DNA from: Schmidtea polychroa
Taxonomy: Eukaryota
Assembly: GCA_044892525.1 (NCBI GenBank)
Contig: CM097885.1
Coordinates: 15,936,001 to 15,996,000 of the forward strand
Reading direction: 5' to 3'
Length of the DNA: 60,000 nucleotides
The notes under the pieces were generated by a model. That model saw nothing but the letters and a program-made list of their open reading frames with translations, was not told where the DNA came from and made no database searches. A program made the position numbers and the translations under genes. Each line of letters begins with the position of its first letter. Position 1 is the first letter of the stretch. Shown piece by piece: positions 17,566 to 28,198 of the stretch.

Positions 17566-18443
17566 TGTTTCGACCAGTCAGAGGGGGATTTATTCGGTTT
17601 CTTTTTCTATCGCGTCTGTGTGCGCGGTCTGGTTAGACCGAATATTGTTGGTGTGCGCACACAGACGCGAGCAATGGATTGTTGTTTGGAAGTAGGTTTT
17701 GATGTAATTTTTTATTGAATTGATTTTTGATGTATTTTAATTAGAAATTCGAGATTTGAATGGATTGTTTTGTGGTTTAAAAAAGGTAAAATTCTGGAAG
17801 GGAGGAAACCAGTTTTGTTTATTGAAATAAGTTTTGGAATCGAAATGTTTGAAGAAGAAGATGTTGATTACAAATTTATTAAAGCTTATGATGTTCCAAA
17901 CCAAGATCTTATTTCTTATTTCGATGAAACCCGTGAATTCATTGAAAATGGCAGAAAATTTGGTGGAGTATTGGTTCACTGTCTTGCTGGAAGATCAAGA
18001 AGTGGAATTATTTTGACGGCTTATTTAATGAAACATTTTAAAGTTGGTCCAAACGATGCGATTGAGACAATTAAGGAAAAGTCATTTATATGTCCAAATG
18101 ATGGATTCATGAAACAATTAAAGATATATTTCAACATGAATTGCAGTGATGAAATCAACAAATGCGCAAATACAGTTTCTCAAGCTCAATTTAAGTTATC
18201 AGCATCTTCAAAAGATTTAGTTCAATTCAAATGTAGAAAGTGTCGATTTTTATTATTCGACAATTCAAGTGTTGTTGAGCACAGTAAAATGAAAGCTTCG
18301 AAAGCAATAAATGAAAGCACAATTTGCAATGAGGAAATACTTATCGAAGCTCTTCCTTGGATTGATAGCAGCAATGCAGACGGGGAAATGAAAATGACAG
18401 TGTTAAAGAATAAAATTTTAATGATTTATTTGGATCTTATTCA
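17566..18443 (+). repeat. 5' LTR (TG...CA; alternative end 18589)
   Basis: Starts TGTTTC; ends ...TATTCA directly before the PBS; matches 21968-22835 apart from a 16-bp indel and at least one substitution. Confidence 0.8.
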
Positions 18444-18585
18444 TGGTAGCAGAGCGTGGTTCCGGCTAGCCAGCCGGAACAAGGTAATAGATGATTATAT
18501 AATGTATTTTTTGTATTTACGTGATTATTTTGTGAATTATTTTATGATTTTATATTTTATATTTATTTTATATTTTTATTGTTGA
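17845..18585 (+). CDS. DUSP12/YVH1-like dual-specificity phosphatase fragment inside the 5' LTR (intronless, truncated; homology to about 18385)
   Basis: Intact [10 protein letters not shown] (HCX5R), D-loop [18 protein letters not shown], partial zinc domain FKCRKCR...VEH...IEALPW; first ATG 17845. Confidence 0.85.
18444..18461 (+). other. Primer binding site, complementary to the initiator tRNA-Met 3' end
   Basis: TGGTAGCAGAGCGTGGTT; animal tRNAiMet ends ...CTCTGCTACCA. Confidence 0.8.
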
Positions 18586-18631
18586 AACATTTCCCCTAGG
18601 GCCTGCCCTCCCTAACCCCATTAGAGGTGGA

Positions 18632-25655: not shown

Positions 25656-26745
25656 CAGTTGGGTATTTTCCGAGAAAATCACATTCTCGAGATTCGGGAT
25701 TTCCCGAAGCAAATTCTATAGAATTCTCGAGAAGTCGAGAAAATTTAAAAAACCTATAAAAAATTCTAAAATCAATGTAAAATAAAGAAATTCGAAAAAA
25801 ATATGTTTTTTATTTAAGTAAGAAGTAGTAAACAATTAATTAAAGCAATTAAAGTCATAAACAAAACAGAAGTAAAACAAAAATAGTTCAAAACATTATT
25901 AAAATAGAATAGAGTATTAAAACAAAATTAATTCAAAAATATTATTTACTAAAATAAAATTTCAGAAAACATAGACTGTCAATGGCTGCGTCTGCAATCG
26001 CGTACGCTTTTGCGAAACAAAAAAGTTGGCTTAATTGTATTAAAAGCCCAGATCAGTCTTTGAACATTTGTTGTTTTCTGTCCACTTTTTTCATATATAT
26101 TTAGTTCCTTTTTAAATATCGGAAAAAGTTCGTTTGACGCATGTTGCGCAATGTTTTCTTTTGGTTTTGAGCATTGCTGGACATAGTTTTCAAGTTGTTT
26201 CGCCATATCTTCTTCTTCAACGCTGTTGTTCACAATCACAGCATCATCGGCAGAATCAGAAACTGCTTGCTCTTCTTGAATGCTTGTAGAAAAAAGACGA
26301 AAGAGGTACGCTTTGGCAGATAAGAAAGATCTGCTAGTTTTCTTTTTAGGCTGGATAGAAACTCGTCGCATAATTCAGTGTGCTGATTCTCCAATTTTGT
26401 GAACAATAGTTTTAGAATAAAATTCGTTGCAAGTAAGTTCACATTTTGGCGGCTGAGAGCTTCGACAGCAACACGAATAAGTTTTAGAGCATTAATGATA
26501 TTCTCACAATGCTTTTCTTCTGCTACAGTAGTTGCCATAACCGTTAAATTGAGCGTGTCGAGTTCCTTACAAACGTGCTTGCTGATGCGAATGAACCTCG
26601 TCAGCATCGATTGAAGGCTGTTCCAACGTGTCTTACAATCCAATAGCAAGATAAGCTCTTTCTGCAAAAGCTCTTTTTGCAAAGTTAAAACTCTTACTCT
26701 GACTCCAAGCGTGTCTTTGACTAACCCACATATACCACTTGACAA
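25656..26745 (-). mobile_element. hAT transposon 3' fragment
   Basis: LLLDCKTRWNSLQSMLTRF and AVEALSRQNVNLL in minus ORFs; ctcgaga subterminal repeats. Confidence 0.8.
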
Positions 26746-27326
26746 CAGGAATCTTTATTGATGATCACAAATAATTTTCACTTTACTCTGACAATCAATT
26801 CAACACTCCGCTCAGTGACTATACAATACTTATTGAAACACTCAGTGAAGAATAACACTCGAGTAAAACACCGGATTAAAAGATCCTTAACTACTGATTG
26901 GTTTATCGCCTGGGGCTTTGAGTTGGTTGTTTTCTTTGAGATTCTTTGAATTTTTTTTATCATTATCTTTTCTTGTTTGTTTATTTATGATTCTTTCAGT
27001 TTGTTTCACGATTTTTTCTTCTTTCTGTTTTGTTTCTTGACATTTTGATTTTTGTGTCGCTTGTTTTTCTTACCAAAATTTAACCGTTAATTTTAAGGGC
27101 TAAAGGTCAGTGTCAATGTATACCTTGATGTAAATAAATAAATATTACAATATTTGTTTACTATTATCAAGATTTAACTACAAATGGATTAGCATGAATA
27201 ATAATTTTTCAACTTCCTATAATTTCGTAAACATTATATTTATTAAAAAACTTGACCTATTGTGGATAACTCATGGTGCATGTGATGGTGGATGTATAAT
27301 AAATATTAATAATAAATATTAATGAT

Positions 27327-28198
27327 TGTTTCAGCCGATTTTGGATGATTTTTTTTGTATCGCGTCTGTGTGCGCACACAGACGCGAGTAATAGGTAATT
27401 TATATTTTATATGTTATAAGTTATGTTTCTGTAGTAATAGATTTAAATCGATCTTTAATTTGTGGAATTTGGTTTTGATGGTTTGTTAATGGAAGAGCAG
27501 GAATCGTTTGTTTGAACTGGTAAATTGTGTAGAAATTTTGGATTTTTGTTTTTTAGTTGAAACATGGAAGAAAATGAAGGCCTGAAATGTCGTCTTCCAA
27601 TGAGCAATATAGCGAAGATTATTTTCTCACCTGAAGGGAGATCATTCCAAGTCGAATATGCATTTAAGGCAATTGCATTAGATGGATTGCTTTCCGTTGG
27701 TATTCGAGGCAATAATGGTGGTGTAGTAGCTACACAAAGAAAAGTTCCAGATAAAATGATTGAGAAGAGTTCAGCTACAAGATTGTTTAATATTACTGAA
27801 AGTACTGAATGGGTTATGACTGATATGATCCCTGATTGTCGATCTCAAACATGTCGTGCACAAATGGAAGCAGATCGATTTAAATATAAAAATGGATATG
27901 AAATGCCTTGTGACATAACATGTCGTTGTATCGCGGATATTAATCAGCTCTACACCCAATCGGCTGAGATGCGACCATTAGGTTTATCAATGATAGCATT
28001 ATCTTATGATATTGAAATGGATAAACCGTTATTATTCAAAACTGACTCCAGTGGCTTTGTAACTGGACATCGAGCTGTTGCAGTTGGTGGGAAGCAATTG
28101 GAGGCTAAAAGTTATTTGGAAAAGAAACTACGTAAAAATAGAGCGTGTGAAACTATCAAATACATAAAAATCTTTTTGACGTGTTTTAGACGAAAACA
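27327..28198 (+). mobile_element. Solo LTR related to the BEL/Pao LTRs, carrying a proteasome alpha cargo
   Basis: TGTTTC...GAAAACA termini; AATGAT duplicated on both sides; shared TCGCGTCTGTGTGCGC/GCACACAGACGCGA motif and similar leader; 872 bp versus 878 bp. Confidence 0.78.

What the first reader, a model, noticed from the sequence alone, without database searches (positions are those of the whole stretch)
17566..28198. LTR family whose LTRs carry exchangeable host-gene cassettes (DUSP12-like versus proteasome alpha)
Seen: three LTRs of about 870-880 bp share a TGTTTC start, the same GC palindrome and a similar leader. After 240-300 bp they switch to different intronless, sense-strand, truncated host coding sequences of about 550-580 bp: a DUSP12/YVH1-like phosphatase (17566 and 21968 copies) and a 20S proteasome alpha subunit (27327 copy). 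Known: LTR elements usually capture genes in the internal region, not inside the LTR. Inference: this family has a variable cargo slot in U3 filled from host mRNAs by template switching. Each insertion would then duplicate the cargo, and solo-LTR formation would leave promoter-equipped retrocopies. Neither cargo has a stop codon inside the LTR, so it may act as RNA (self-mimicry against piRNA silencing, or a source of small RNAs against host genes) rather than as protein.
Basis: partly seen in the sequence, partly recalled or inferred. Interest (0 to 1): 0.92.

Follow-up and report, generated by a model that had tools for sequence, protein, structure and literature searches.

The report
Retrotransposon repeats that translate captured host genes
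A young, high-copy retrotransposon family in this probably flatworm genome carries patchworks of host gene pieces inside its terminal repeats, apparently read as the front end of the element's own protein with a captured ubiquitin before its coat protein.

Summary
17566-18443 and 21968-22836 are the LTRs of a non-autonomous BEL/Pao-type element, and 27327-28198 is a solo LTR of the same family. All three have the TGTTTC start and the palindrome. The cargos are DUSP12-like and proteasome alpha-6.

The family is large: the LTR 5' end occurs 1109 times in the genome, against 0 for the control. Cargo is exchangeable and often mosaic. Rab+proteasome, cofilin+WD40, DUSP+unknown and other LTR types sit on the same backbone.

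The proteasome cargo joins the exons of an intron-bearing parent gene exactly, so it came from spliced mRNA. The DUSP12-like parent is itself intronless.

The interpretation needs one correction. The cargo lacks a stop because it begins with an ATG and is in frame with the primer-binding site, a linker, ubiquitin and Gag. The single open frames run 1322-1395 aa, and at least 2102 aa in an autonomous relative. The window's own copy is frameshifted.

So the cargo most likely lies in the transcribed R part of the LTR, not in U3, and is translated. Cargo and the first ubiquitin evolve neutrally. The ubiquitin next to Gag, and Gag itself, are constrained.

There is no RNA evidence. I found no published description. 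I class it as a new variant of a known kind.

The parts
17065..17565 (.). (ATT)n microsatellite that forms the upstream insertion flank
17566..18443 (+). 5' LTR, 878 bp, TG..CA
   Evidence: Dispersed copies at 86-98% identity on C1-C4
17610..17670 (+). Palindrome in the LTR 5' part (arms 17610-17625 and 17655-17670, 29-nt loop); probably U3
   Evidence: conserved across LTR types
17845..18443 (+). ATG-started cargo frame inside the LTR. 17857-18388 derives from the DUSP12-like host gene (parent nt 127-710, with a 46-nt internal stretch, parent nt 423-468, unaligned)
   Evidence: Pfam DSPc 1e-21. 96-97% nt identity to the parent L090. dN/dS against the parent is 0.6-2.9
18409..18414 (+). AATAAA about 30 nt before the LTR end, read as Asn-Lys in the ORF; likely poly(A) signal marking the end of R
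   Evidence: Read from the sequence. The same AAT AAA ATT sits ~33-35 nt from the LTR end in L061, and the same N-K-I residues occur in the L089 and L092 translations
18444..18459 (+). Primer-binding site TGGTAGCAGAGCGTGG, lying inside the open frame (encodes ..GSRAW..)
   Evidence: The match to initiator tRNA-Met is recalled, not tested
18460..18637 (+). AT-rich linker between the PBS and ubiquitin. It is coding in the sister copies. In this window copy the PBS-to-ubiquitin segment is 224 nt instead of 217, which shifts the frame
18638..18862 (+). Ubiquitin unit 1, ending ..RLRGG; evolves neutrally
   Evidence: Pfam ubiquitin, two stretches, 3e-53. dN/dS 0.5-1.7
18863..19090 (+). Ubiquitin unit 2, ending ..GLAGG, directly before Gag; constrained
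   Evidence: dN/dS 0-0.45, at most 0.1 in 4 of 6 comparisons. Colinear with the single ubiquitin of the autonomous relative
19091..20290 (+). Gag (DUF1759 at 19499-19924, followed by Cys/His knuckles)
   Evidence: Pfam DUF1759 4e-9. Relatives are BEL/Pao polyproteins. dN/dS 0.09-0.19
20291..21925 (+). Protease-like region (about 20477-20698), then an acidic tail and the stop codon. No RT, RNase H or integrase
   Evidence: Weak Asp_protease_2 hit at 0.005, below the curated cutoff. Aligns to the protease region of L092. dN/dS ~0.6
21954..21967 (+). Polypurine tract AAGGAGGGGGGAAA
   Evidence: The identical upstream flank occurs at the 3' LTRs L071b, L080, L084 and L087
21968..22836 (+). 3' LTR with the same DUSP cargo; lacks the last ~27 nt and abuts (ATT)n
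27327..28198 (+). Solo LTR of the same family. Palindrome without its loop at 27360-27387, frame ATG at 27564, proteasome alpha-6 cargo at 27617-28140, LTR tail at 28141-28198

Best explanation
This is a young, high-copy BEL/Pao-type LTR retrotransposon family. The window holds one non-autonomous member (Gag and a protease-like region, no RT or integrase) and one solo LTR.

Each LTR has three parts:
- a conserved 5' part of ~125-250 bp, with the terminal TGTTTCGACC.. sequence and a GC-rich palindrome, probably U3;
- a 0.3-0.8 kb region built from pieces of host mRNAs;
- a short tail with AATAAA.

The host-derived region begins with an ATG. In the 5' LTR it is the first part of the element's single long reading frame: cargo, LTR end, primer-binding site, AT-rich linker, ubiquitin unit(s), Gag, protease, and RT/integrase in autonomous relatives.

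Shown here: the LTR anatomy, the copy number, the mosaic and exchangeable cargo, the spliced-mRNA origin of the proteasome piece, the single open frame in many independent copies, and the pattern of selection.

Inferred:
- The cargo lies in the transcribed R region and is translated as an N-terminal extension.
- New pieces enter, and old ones are trimmed from their 5' side, when the first (minus-strand strong-stop) DNA jumps early or onto a co-packaged host mRNA or another subfamily's RNA.
- Only the reading frame of this leader is selected, not its protein sequence.
- The ubiquitin next to Gag either lets host deubiquitinases release Gag from whatever lies upstream, or works as a ubiquitin-Gag fusion. 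Either role would make the element tolerant of junk at its front end.
For: Family and anatomy.
- The LTR 5' end TGTTTCGACCAGTCAGAGGGGGA (up to 1 mismatch) occurs 1109 times, against 0 for the reversed control.
- Dispersed solo LTRs carry 5-bp target duplications.
- PBS, polypurine tract, DUF1759 Gag and BEL/Pao relatives are all present.

Exchangeable, mosaic cargo. I took 20 loci from the first pattern hits on C1 and scanned the ORFs of 15 of them.
- 5 have Ras+Proteasome in one frame, 4 Proteasome alone, 1 DSPc and 1 Cofilin+WD40. 2 have only weak hits below Pfam's cutoffs (RING, JAB) and 2 have nothing credible.
- L061 has 45 aa of DUSP followed by an unknown piece.
- LTRs with different cargos share an identical polypurine-tract flank.
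- L061 combines a window-type interior (96.7% identical) with LTR cargo 94-97% identical to that of an autonomous lineage whose Ub-Gag-protease region is only 38% identical.

mRNA origin. The parent proteasome alpha-6 gene (L091) has introns of 50 and 43 bp. The cargo joins those exons exactly, at 94-98% nt identity in 17 copies.

One reading frame.
- L061 is 1322 aa from the LTR's ATG, with 0 stops against 97 and 126 in the other two frames.
- Four sister copies of the window element are open for 1395 aa. L001 is open for 502 aa, to the end of its locus.
- In 20 of 22 LTR pairs picked by eye, the upstream LTR's open frame is 402-1395 aa. The downstream LTR's is 167-333 aa in all 22. In one search the same holds for 11 of 12 pairs.
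- The autonomous L092 is open for at least 2102 aa, with ubiquitin, DUF1759, RVT_1 and Peptidase_A17.
- The PBS-to-ubiquitin segment exists in 217-nt and 247-nt versions, both in phase and open, in 5 of 6 distinct versions.

Selection.
- dN/dS is 0.09-0.19 for Gag, 0-0.45 for ubiquitin 2, 0.5-1.7 for ubiquitin 1, and 0.6-2.9 for DUSP cargo against its parent.
- Singleton changes in solo LTRs are 31 synonymous, 83 nonsynonymous and 6 stop. This matches the neutral 22/73/5.5%.

Breakpoints. All DUSP cargos end near residue 236 but start anywhere from residue 3 to 84. This fits trimming from the side that reverse transcription copies last.

Precedents. In Ty1 the PBS lies within the GAG ORF (PMC4974528, passage). 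Abnormal template switching places foreign sequence in LTRs (PMC13317346, passages).
Against: - No RNA, ribosome or protein data were obtained, so the transcription start, the poly(A) site and translation are all inferred.
- The cargos are young, 2-6% diverged from their parents. Part of their openness is therefore simply age, and there were too few shared substitutions to test selection in the active lineage (only 2 majority changes).
- dN/dS near 1 for cargo and ubiquitin 1 also fits an untranslated leader, with initiation at the Met of ubiquitin 2.
- The TTTAAA-type box seen 25-65 nt upstream of the ATG in most LTR types abuts the ATG in the autonomous L092. It cannot be a TATA box for that start codon.
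- Ubiquitin 2 ends GLAGG rather than RLRGG, which may weaken deubiquitinase cleavage (recalled biochemistry).
- The window's own copy is frameshifted, and 2 of 22 pairs do not show the extended frame.
- The cargo survey covers only 20 loci, all from the first 28 Mb of one chromosome.
Confidence: 0.72

Rival explanations
1. The cargo sits in U3, upstream of the transcription start. It is not translated and matters only as RNA, either as self-mimicry against piRNA silencing or as a source of small RNAs against host genes.
For: The cargo is duplicated at both ends and is 94-98% identical to essential host mRNAs. Proteasome alpha-6 gave 1473 first-look candidates. Cargo protein sequence is unconstrained. 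Gene capture causing epigenetic conflict is discussed for maize (bioRxiv 10.1101/777037, abstract seen in the listing).
Against: A U3 location does not explain three things. Every cargo type starts with an ATG. Junctions between unrelated pieces are in frame. The frame runs on through the LTR end, PBS and AT-rich linker into ubiquitin-Gag in many independent copies, with 0 stops against ~100 in the other frames. AATAAA lies at the 3' end of the cargo, not before it. An RNA-level effect could still coexist with translation.
Confidence: 0.1
2. The cargo is in R but is only a long 5' leader. Gag synthesis starts at an internal Met, at or just before the Gag-proximal ubiquitin, through leaky scanning or internal entry. 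The continuous upstream frame is a by-product of youth.
For: dN/dS is ~1 for cargo and ubiquitin 1 but well below 1 from ubiquitin 2 onward. Ubiquitin 2 begins with Met, and L092 has a Met 9 residues before its ubiquitin. The cargos are only 2-6% diverged from their parents.
Against: Two linker versions differing by 30 nt, spread over several indels, both keep phase and stay open despite about 75% A+T. Chimeric junctions (Rab/proteasome, DUSP/unknown, cofilin/WD40) are in frame. In the proteasome LTR the element's own ATG frame is brought into the host frame across a region with a net 5-nt loss. A leader of 0.7-1 kb with many AUGs would block scanning.
Confidence: 0.13
3. The captured pieces are selected for what their proteins do for the element, for example dominant-negative proteasome, Rab or phosphatase fragments.
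For: The captured genes include proteasome, ubiquitin and a possible JAB/MPN piece, which is a suggestive theme.
Against: The pieces are truncated and shuffled, and differ between subfamilies. The DUSP active-site motif varies between copies. dN/dS is at or above 1. The JAB hit is below Pfam's cutoff. Abundant housekeeping mRNAs are what random co-packaging would be expected to capture.
Confidence: 0.04
4. These are ordinary DNA-level duplications or LINE-made processed pseudogenes that happen to lie next to repeats.
For: The DUSP12-like parent has no introns. The window lies in a block of segmental duplications, with 100% identical copies at C1:15.64, 15.70 and 16.05 Mb and on C707.
Against: The cargos sit inside units with TG..CA ends, 5-bp target duplications, and a PBS and polypurine tract. 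They are dispersed on four chromosomes with the LTR sequence attached. They have no poly(A) tails.
Confidence: 0.01

Closest known systems
BEL/Pao LTR retrotransposons of metazoans
   Same: LTRs with TG..CA ends, 5-bp target duplications, PBS and polypurine tract, and DUF1759 Gag with Cys/His knuckles. The autonomous relative L092 has RVT_1 and Peptidase_A17. The Gag's nearest relatives are BEL/Pao polyproteins at 22-28% identity.
   Different: A ubiquitin domain precedes Gag; 0 of the 8 database relatives carry one. The reading frame starts in the LTR, and the LTR carries a host-gene mosaic. The window element lacks RT and integrase.
Acutely transforming retroviruses with gag-onc fusions (recalled knowledge)
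   Same: Spliced host cDNA is captured by a replication-defective retroelement and placed in frame with Gag. Capture is attributed to recombination with co-packaged RNA during reverse transcription.
   Different: There the host gene replaces internal viral genes and follows Gag. Here the host pieces lie inside the LTR, upstream of Gag. They come from several genes at once, are present in hundreds of germline copies, and are separated from Gag by ubiquitin.
Yeast Ty1
   Same: The PBS lies inside the GAG open reading frame (PMC4974528, passage seen). That the Ty1 Gag start codon lies within the 5' LTR is recalled, not checked.
   Different: In Ty1 the LTR-encoded part is a few native codons. Here it is 200-290 codons of foreign, interchangeable sequence.
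Cytopathogenic pestiviruses with cellular ubiquitin insertions
   Same: One or two host ubiquitin units, sometimes with other cellular pieces in mosaic inserts, are captured by RNA recombination into a viral polyprotein directly upstream of a protein that must be released (PMC13517609, passages seen). Cleavage by host ubiquitin hydrolases is recalled.
   Different: That is an RNA virus of cattle, where the insertions arise within single infected animals. Here ubiquitin is a long-kept part of a retrotransposon lineage, shared by lineages whose Ub-Gag-protease regions are 38% identical. Its cleavage is untested.
Gene-fragment capture by plant LTR retrotransposons, and foreign sequence placed in LTRs by abnormal template switching (BARE-2, Veju)
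   Same: Host or foreign sequence is carried and amplified by LTR elements, and template switching is the proposed route (PMC2774510 and PMC13317346, passages seen).
   Different: In maize no LTR element held pieces of more than one gene (PMC2774510, passage). Here mosaics of 2 or more genes are common, lie in the LTR, and are in frame with Gag.

Membership tests
BEL/Pao LTR retrotransposon | Direct long terminal repeats with TG..CA ends | tested here: met
   17566-18443 and 21968-22836 are 99.3-99.6% identical. L061 has 1064-bp LTRs at 99.7% and L062 has 869-bp LTRs at 99.1%.
BEL/Pao LTR retrotransposon | Short target-site duplication | tested here: met
   5-bp duplications flank the solo LTRs L049, L050, L059 and L045. 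AATGAT flanks the window solo LTR on both sides. It cannot be read for the full window element, which is flanked by (ATT)n on both sides and has a truncated 3' LTR.
BEL/Pao LTR retrotransposon | PBS next to the 5' LTR and polypurine tract next to the 3' LTR | tested here: met
   PBS at 18444-18459 and polypurine tract at 21954-21967. The identity of the primer tRNA was not tested.
BEL/Pao LTR retrotransposon | Gag of the DUF1759 type, homologous to BEL/Pao polyproteins | tested here: met
   Pfam DUF1759 at 4e-9. 8 of 8 database hits are Peptidase_A17, RVT_1 or DUF1759 proteins.
BEL/Pao LTR retrotransposon | Own RT, RNase H and integrase (autonomy) | tested here: not met
   The window element has no RT or integrase domain, so it is a non-autonomous member. 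The related L092 has RVT_1 and Peptidase_A17 in one frame of at least 2102 aa.
Retroviral-type capture of spliced host cDNA fused to Gag | Captured sequence lacks the parent gene's introns | tested here: met
   Met for proteasome alpha-6: introns of 50 and 43 bp are absent and the junctions are exact. Uninformative for DUSP12-like, whose parent has a single exon. For the L061-type cargo, five colinear partial matches over 9.5 kb at C1:217.0 Mb suggest a multi-exon parent; this was not examined further.
Retroviral-type capture of spliced host cDNA fused to Gag | Host piece in frame with Gag | tested here: met
   Translation itself was not tested.
Retroviral-type capture of spliced host cDNA fused to Gag | Host piece lies in the internal region, replacing viral genes | tested here: not met
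   The cargo lies inside both LTRs, upstream of the PBS.
Ubiquitin as a host-cleaved module in a viral polyprotein (pestivirus type) | Intact ubiquitin fold ending in Gly-Gly directly before the released protein | tested here: met
   Pfam ubiquitin at 3e-53, two units. Unit 2 ends GLAGG before Gag, and in L092 the unit ends RLCGG before Gag. Unit 2 has dN/dS of 0-0.45.
Ubiquitin as a host-cleaved module in a viral polyprotein (pestivirus type) | Cleavage after Gly-Gly by host deubiquitinases | not testable with these tools
   Needs a biochemical assay or N-terminal sequencing of Gag.
LINE-made processed pseudogene | Poly(A) tail, long variable target duplication, no LTR context | tested here: not met
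   The cargos are embedded between LTR 5' and 3' parts and carry 5-bp duplications.

The most novel reading that the evidence does not exclude
The LTR's R region works as an open 'exon-shuffling' slot at the front of the element's polyprotein. A ubiquitin kept under selection insulates Gag from whatever is captured. The family can therefore load, swap and express pieces of abundant host mRNAs freely. The resulting thousand-odd near-identical copies of essential-gene sequence (proteasome alpha-6, Rab, ubiquitin) would also tie the host's hands, because small RNAs raised against the element would hit indispensable mRNAs.
Probability: 0.22. Interest if true: 0.9.

Novelty: new variant of a known kind. 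Interest (0 to 1): 0.78.

Why it matters
If translation is confirmed, this would be a retrotransposon whose terminal repeat encodes a freely exchangeable, host-derived front end of its own polyprotein. A captured ubiquitin would make that arrangement workable.

It offers a natural, multi-step record of how reverse-transcriptase template jumps capture and shuffle cellular mRNAs. Nested 5' trimmings, fixed 3' breakpoints and swaps between lineages are all visible. This is the process thought to underlie oncogene capture, and here it is preserved in hundreds of germline copies.

It also spreads more than a thousand promoter-proximal, ATG-started copies of fragments of essential genes through the genome. 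That matters for gene annotation, because these copies can pass as false paralogues of proteasome, Rab and DUSP genes. It matters for small-RNA cross-targeting, and as raw material for new chimeric genes.

Tried and rejected
RNA evidence.
- The look-up of sequencing runs listed no RNA holder on record.
There is therefore no read evidence of any kind.

Intron reading of the linker. 18484-18599 looks like GTAATA..CCCCTAG, and its length varies between subfamilies. I rejected an intron for two reasons. Splicing there would put exon 2 out of frame, with a stop after 17 codons. The unspliced segment is open and in phase in 5 of 6 versions. A trans-splice acceptor at the same AG has the same frame problem.

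Cargo census. Loci for the DUSP hits could not be cut out either. The survey therefore rests on 20 loci.

Selection on the active lineage. Too few shared substitutions exist.

Identity of the L061-type cargo. It has no Pfam family, and the protein atlas gave only weak bacterial 'hypothetical' rows with scores of 0.90 or less.

L089, the 7.5-kb LTR pair tried as an autonomous candidate. It proved to be a member with 557-bp LTRs and foreign material inside. The autonomous relative was found later through.

Literature. Searches found no description of ubiquitin-Gag BEL/Pao elements or of LTR-borne host-gene mosaics in flatworms. This covers only the open library searched.

Earlier scan notes. None bear on this finding.

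
Full report
WHAT IS AT THE COORDINATES

The window is AT-rich animal DNA of about 30% G+C. It comes from a 781-Mb assembly. Its proteasome fragment is closest to flatworm proteins.

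17566-22836 is an LTR retrotransposon lying in an (ATT)n microsatellite. Its parts are:
- 5' LTR, 17566-18443, 878 bp, TG..CA;
- primer-binding site TGGTAGCAGAGCGTGG at 18444;
- an AT-rich stretch;
- a long frame, 18548-21925, with two ubiquitin units (Pfam 3e-53), a DUF1759 Gag with Cys/His knuckles, a weak aspartyl-protease match and an acidic tail, but no RT or integrase;
- purine tract AAGGAGGGGGGAAA;
- 3' LTR, 21968-~22836, 99.3-99.6% identical to the 5' LTR, lacking its last ~27 nt.

27327-28198 is a third unit with the same TGTTTC start and the same palindrome arm. The arm occurs 6 times in the window against 0 in shuffles. Both LTR types carry a host coding piece: DSPc at 1e-21, and Proteasome at 1e-31.

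IS THE THIRD UNIT AN LTR OF THE SAME FAMILY?

Inside the window only ~60 nt around the palindrome align. In the genome the proteasome-bearing unit is dispersed on four chromosomes.

Aligned copies start TGTTTCGACCAGTCAGAGGGGGA and share the first ~125 nt with the DUSP LTR, including the palindrome and its loop. They end ..GACGAAAACA and carry 5-bp target duplications. They are solo LTRs. The window copy is a deleted version and sits in an old segmental duplication.

The 23-nt LTR start occurs 1109 times in the genome, against 0 for the control. The DUSP-LTR element is also dispersed, at 86-98% identity, as full elements and as solo LTRs.

CARGO IS EXCHANGEABLE AND MOSAIC

I fetched 20 loci from the first pattern hits on chromosome C1. 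I left out the window's duplicated block and loci I already held. This is a small sample, limited by position.

The ATG-started LTR frames of 15 of these loci were scanned against Pfam:

| Result | Loci |
|---|---|
| Ras-family plus Proteasome in one frame | 5 |
| Proteasome alone | 4 |
| DSPc | 1 |
| Cofilin plus WD40 | 1 |
| Weak hits below cutoff only (RING, JAB) | 2 |
| Nothing credible | 2 |

Five loci were not scanned. Three had no long frame or only a short one, one (L075) had an unscanned frame that resembles an unnamed type, and L088 has a truncated LTR followed by the interior.

L061 has 1064-bp LTRs in which 45 residues of DUSP are followed, in frame, by 213 residues of an unnamed protein.

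LTRs with different cargos (L071b, L080, L084, L087) are preceded by the identical 30-nt purine-tract flank of the window element. L061 has a window-type interior at 96.7% identity. The same backbone therefore carries different LTR cargos.

WHERE THE CARGO CAME FROM

A protein search of the genome with a full-length DUSP12-like protein (P0121) found one complete copy, C2:123292852-123293697. It is uninterrupted, 282 aa, lies in non-repeat context, and has none of the LTR, palindrome or PBS motifs. The cargo is 95-98.6% identical to it in DNA. This parent has no introns, so the intronless state of the DUSP cargo is uninformative.

For proteasome alpha-6, one match among 151 extended beyond the cargo's end. 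That locus (L091) is a gene with introns of 50 and 43 bp, plus a later one. The cargo joins exons 1, 2 and 3 exactly. 17 dispersed copies are 94-98% identical to the spliced coding sequence. The proteasome piece therefore came from a spliced mRNA.

For the L061-type piece, five colinear partial matches over 9.5 kb at C1:217.0 Mb, at 61-81% identity, suggest an older capture from a multi-exon gene. I did not examine this further.

WHY THERE IS NO STOP CODON

The cargo frame starts at an ATG: 17845 in the window's 5' LTR and 27564 in the solo LTR. In the 5' LTR of most copies it does not end at the LTR.

- In four sister copies of the window element, from the segmental duplications, the open frame is 1395 aa. 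L001 reads cargo, LTR end, the PBS-encoded ..[13 protein letters not shown].., linker, ubiquitin 1, ubiquitin 2 and Gag without a stop, to the end of the locus.
- L061 is open for 1322 aa from its LTR's ATG, with 0 stops against 97 and 126 in the other frames.
- From the table I picked by eye 22 LTR pairs on the same contig and strand, 3.8-13.6 kb apart. In 20 of them the upstream LTR's open frame is 402-1395 aa. The downstream LTR's is 167-333 aa in all 22. In one search the same holds for 11 of 12 pairs.
- L088 (Rab remnant) and L089 (proteasome cargo) also read through the PBS into ubiquitin.
- The stretch from the PBS to ubiquitin 1 looks like an intron (GTAATA..CCCCTAG). It exists in a 217-nt and a 247-nt version that differ by several indels summing to 30 nt. 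Both are in phase and open. 5 of 6 distinct versions are so.
- The window's own version is 224 nt, which shifts the frame. This is why the window shows two overlapping frames, 17731-18585 and 18548-21925.

AN AUTONOMOUS RELATIVE

One search showed L061-type cargo heading open frames of 2041-2121 aa. One of these, L092, reads cargo, PBS, linker, one ubiquitin, DUF1759 Gag, protease region, RVT_1, Peptidase_A17 and an integrase-like end, in one frame of at least 2102 aa.

Its ubiquitin-Gag-protease part is colinear with the window's ubiquitin 2-Gag-protease at 38% identity over 716 residues. The ubiquitin before Gag is therefore old and retained. The LTR cargo of L061, by contrast, is 94-97% identical to that of L092, so LTR parts have moved between lineages. 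None of 8 database relatives of the Gag has a ubiquitin domain.

SELECTION

Comparing the window element with six other copies gave the following:

| Region | dN/dS |
|---|---|
| Gag | 0.09-0.19 |
| Ubiquitin 2 | 0-0.45 (at most 0.1 in 4 of 6) |
| Ubiquitin 1 | 0.5-1.7 |
| Protease-like region and tail | ~0.6 |

DUSP cargo against its parent gives 0.6-2.9, on only 8-13 differences.

In 17 proteasome solo LTRs the singleton changes are 31 synonymous, 83 nonsynonymous and 6 stop. This equals the neutral expectation of 22/73/5.5%. Only 2 changes are shared by most copies, so the active lineage cannot be tested.

The picture is a front part (cargo, linker, ubiquitin 1) whose amino acids are free but whose frame is kept, followed by a constrained ubiquitin-Gag.

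HOW IT MOST LIKELY WORKS

Because the frame begins in the LTR, the transcription start must lie upstream of the cargo ATG.

AATAAA lies ~30-35 nt before the LTR end in the DUSP-type and L061-type LTRs, and the matching Asn-Lys-Ile residues appear in L089 and L092. The cargo would therefore be R, flanked by a ~250-bp U3 and a very short U5.

A TTTAAA-type box lies 25-65 nt upstream of the ATG in most LTR types. In L092 it abuts the ATG, so I do not rely on it.

With a ~600-nt R, the minus-strand strong-stop DNA can transfer early or onto another co-packaged RNA. This would explain several features:
- all DUSP cargos share the 3' breakpoint near residue 236 but begin anywhere from residue 3 to 84;
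- newer pieces (Rab; a DUSP remnant in L061) lie upstream of older ones;
- L089 lacks the U3 3' part and the R 5' part in both LTRs;
- cargo moves between lineages.

All of this is inference. Template switching as a route for foreign sequence into LTRs is described for plants (PMC13317346, passages).

The ubiquitin next to Gag may be cut by host deubiquitinases, as recalled for pestivirus ubiquitin insertions (insertions documented in PMC13517609, passages). Alternatively it may stay on Gag. Either way it separates the constrained Gag from an unconstrained front end.

COMPARISON AND NOVELTY

Each ingredient has a precedent:
- Ty1 has its PBS inside GAG (PMC4974528, passage);
- transforming retroviruses make gag-host fusions (recalled);
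- pestiviruses carry ubiquitin inserts;
- plant LTR elements capture gene fragments, though in maize never more than one gene per element (PMC2774510, passage).

I found no description of the combination: multi-gene mosaics inside the LTR, in frame with a ubiquitin-Gag polyprotein, in a BEL/Pao family of about a thousand LTRs (searches, open library only). I class it as a new variant of a known kind.

LIMITS

- There are no RNA or protein data.
- The cargo survey is small and limited to one part of one chromosome.
- The primer tRNA was not identified.
- The LTR 5' end of L092 was not captured.
- The cargos are young, which weakens arguments from the absence of stops within them. The stronger evidence is phase-keeping across junctions and across the AT-rich linker.

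Noticed in passing
window 17065-17565, 22837-23050, 28199-28290; loci L069-L088: The family seems to prefer (AAT)n/(ATT)n microsatellites as insertion sites. About 10-12 of 16 sampled LTR starts not preceded by a polypurine tract abut such a repeat, in either orientation. These repeats make up only 1.9% of the window and 2.8% of other sampled flanks.
   Followed up: partly
whole window; G000:C1:15.55-16.07 Mb and contig C707: The window lies in a block of recent segmental duplications. The DUSP element and the proteasome solo LTR recur at a fixed spacing of ~9.8 kb, at ~100% identity, at C1:15.64, 15.70 and 16.05 Mb and on C707. Older copies at 89-96% lie nearby, and at C1:16.25 and 16.74 Mb.
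   Followed up: partly
window 27360-27387 versus 17610-17670: In the solo LTR the 29-nt loop between the palindrome arms is gone, leaving a perfect 28-nt palindrome. The autonomous relative L092 carries two palindrome copies in tandem. The palindrome's function (promoter element or hairpin) is unknown.
   Followed up: no
window 25979-26754, minus strand: Open frames contain ..CKTRWNSLQSMLTRF.., which recalls the C-terminal dimerisation region of hAT transposases. This is recalled, not searched.
   Followed up: no
window 29664-30161, plus strand: A RING-finger frame (weak Pfam zf-C3HC4 hit, 1e-3, below cutoff), possibly an exon of a TRAF-like host gene. Repeats of 241-333 bp follow at 30378-30963.
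   Followed up: no
G000:C1:233500644-233509965 and C1:260306249-260323461: DUSP-cargo LTRs recur at regular spacings of 4448 bp and about 8355 bp. This suggests tandem LTR-interior-LTR arrays.
   Followed up: no
L092 and window 20291-20700: The protease region of both the autonomous and the non-autonomous lineage reads ..[12 protein letters not shown].. where a D-S/T-G active-site motif would be expected. The expected motif is recalled.
   Followed up: no
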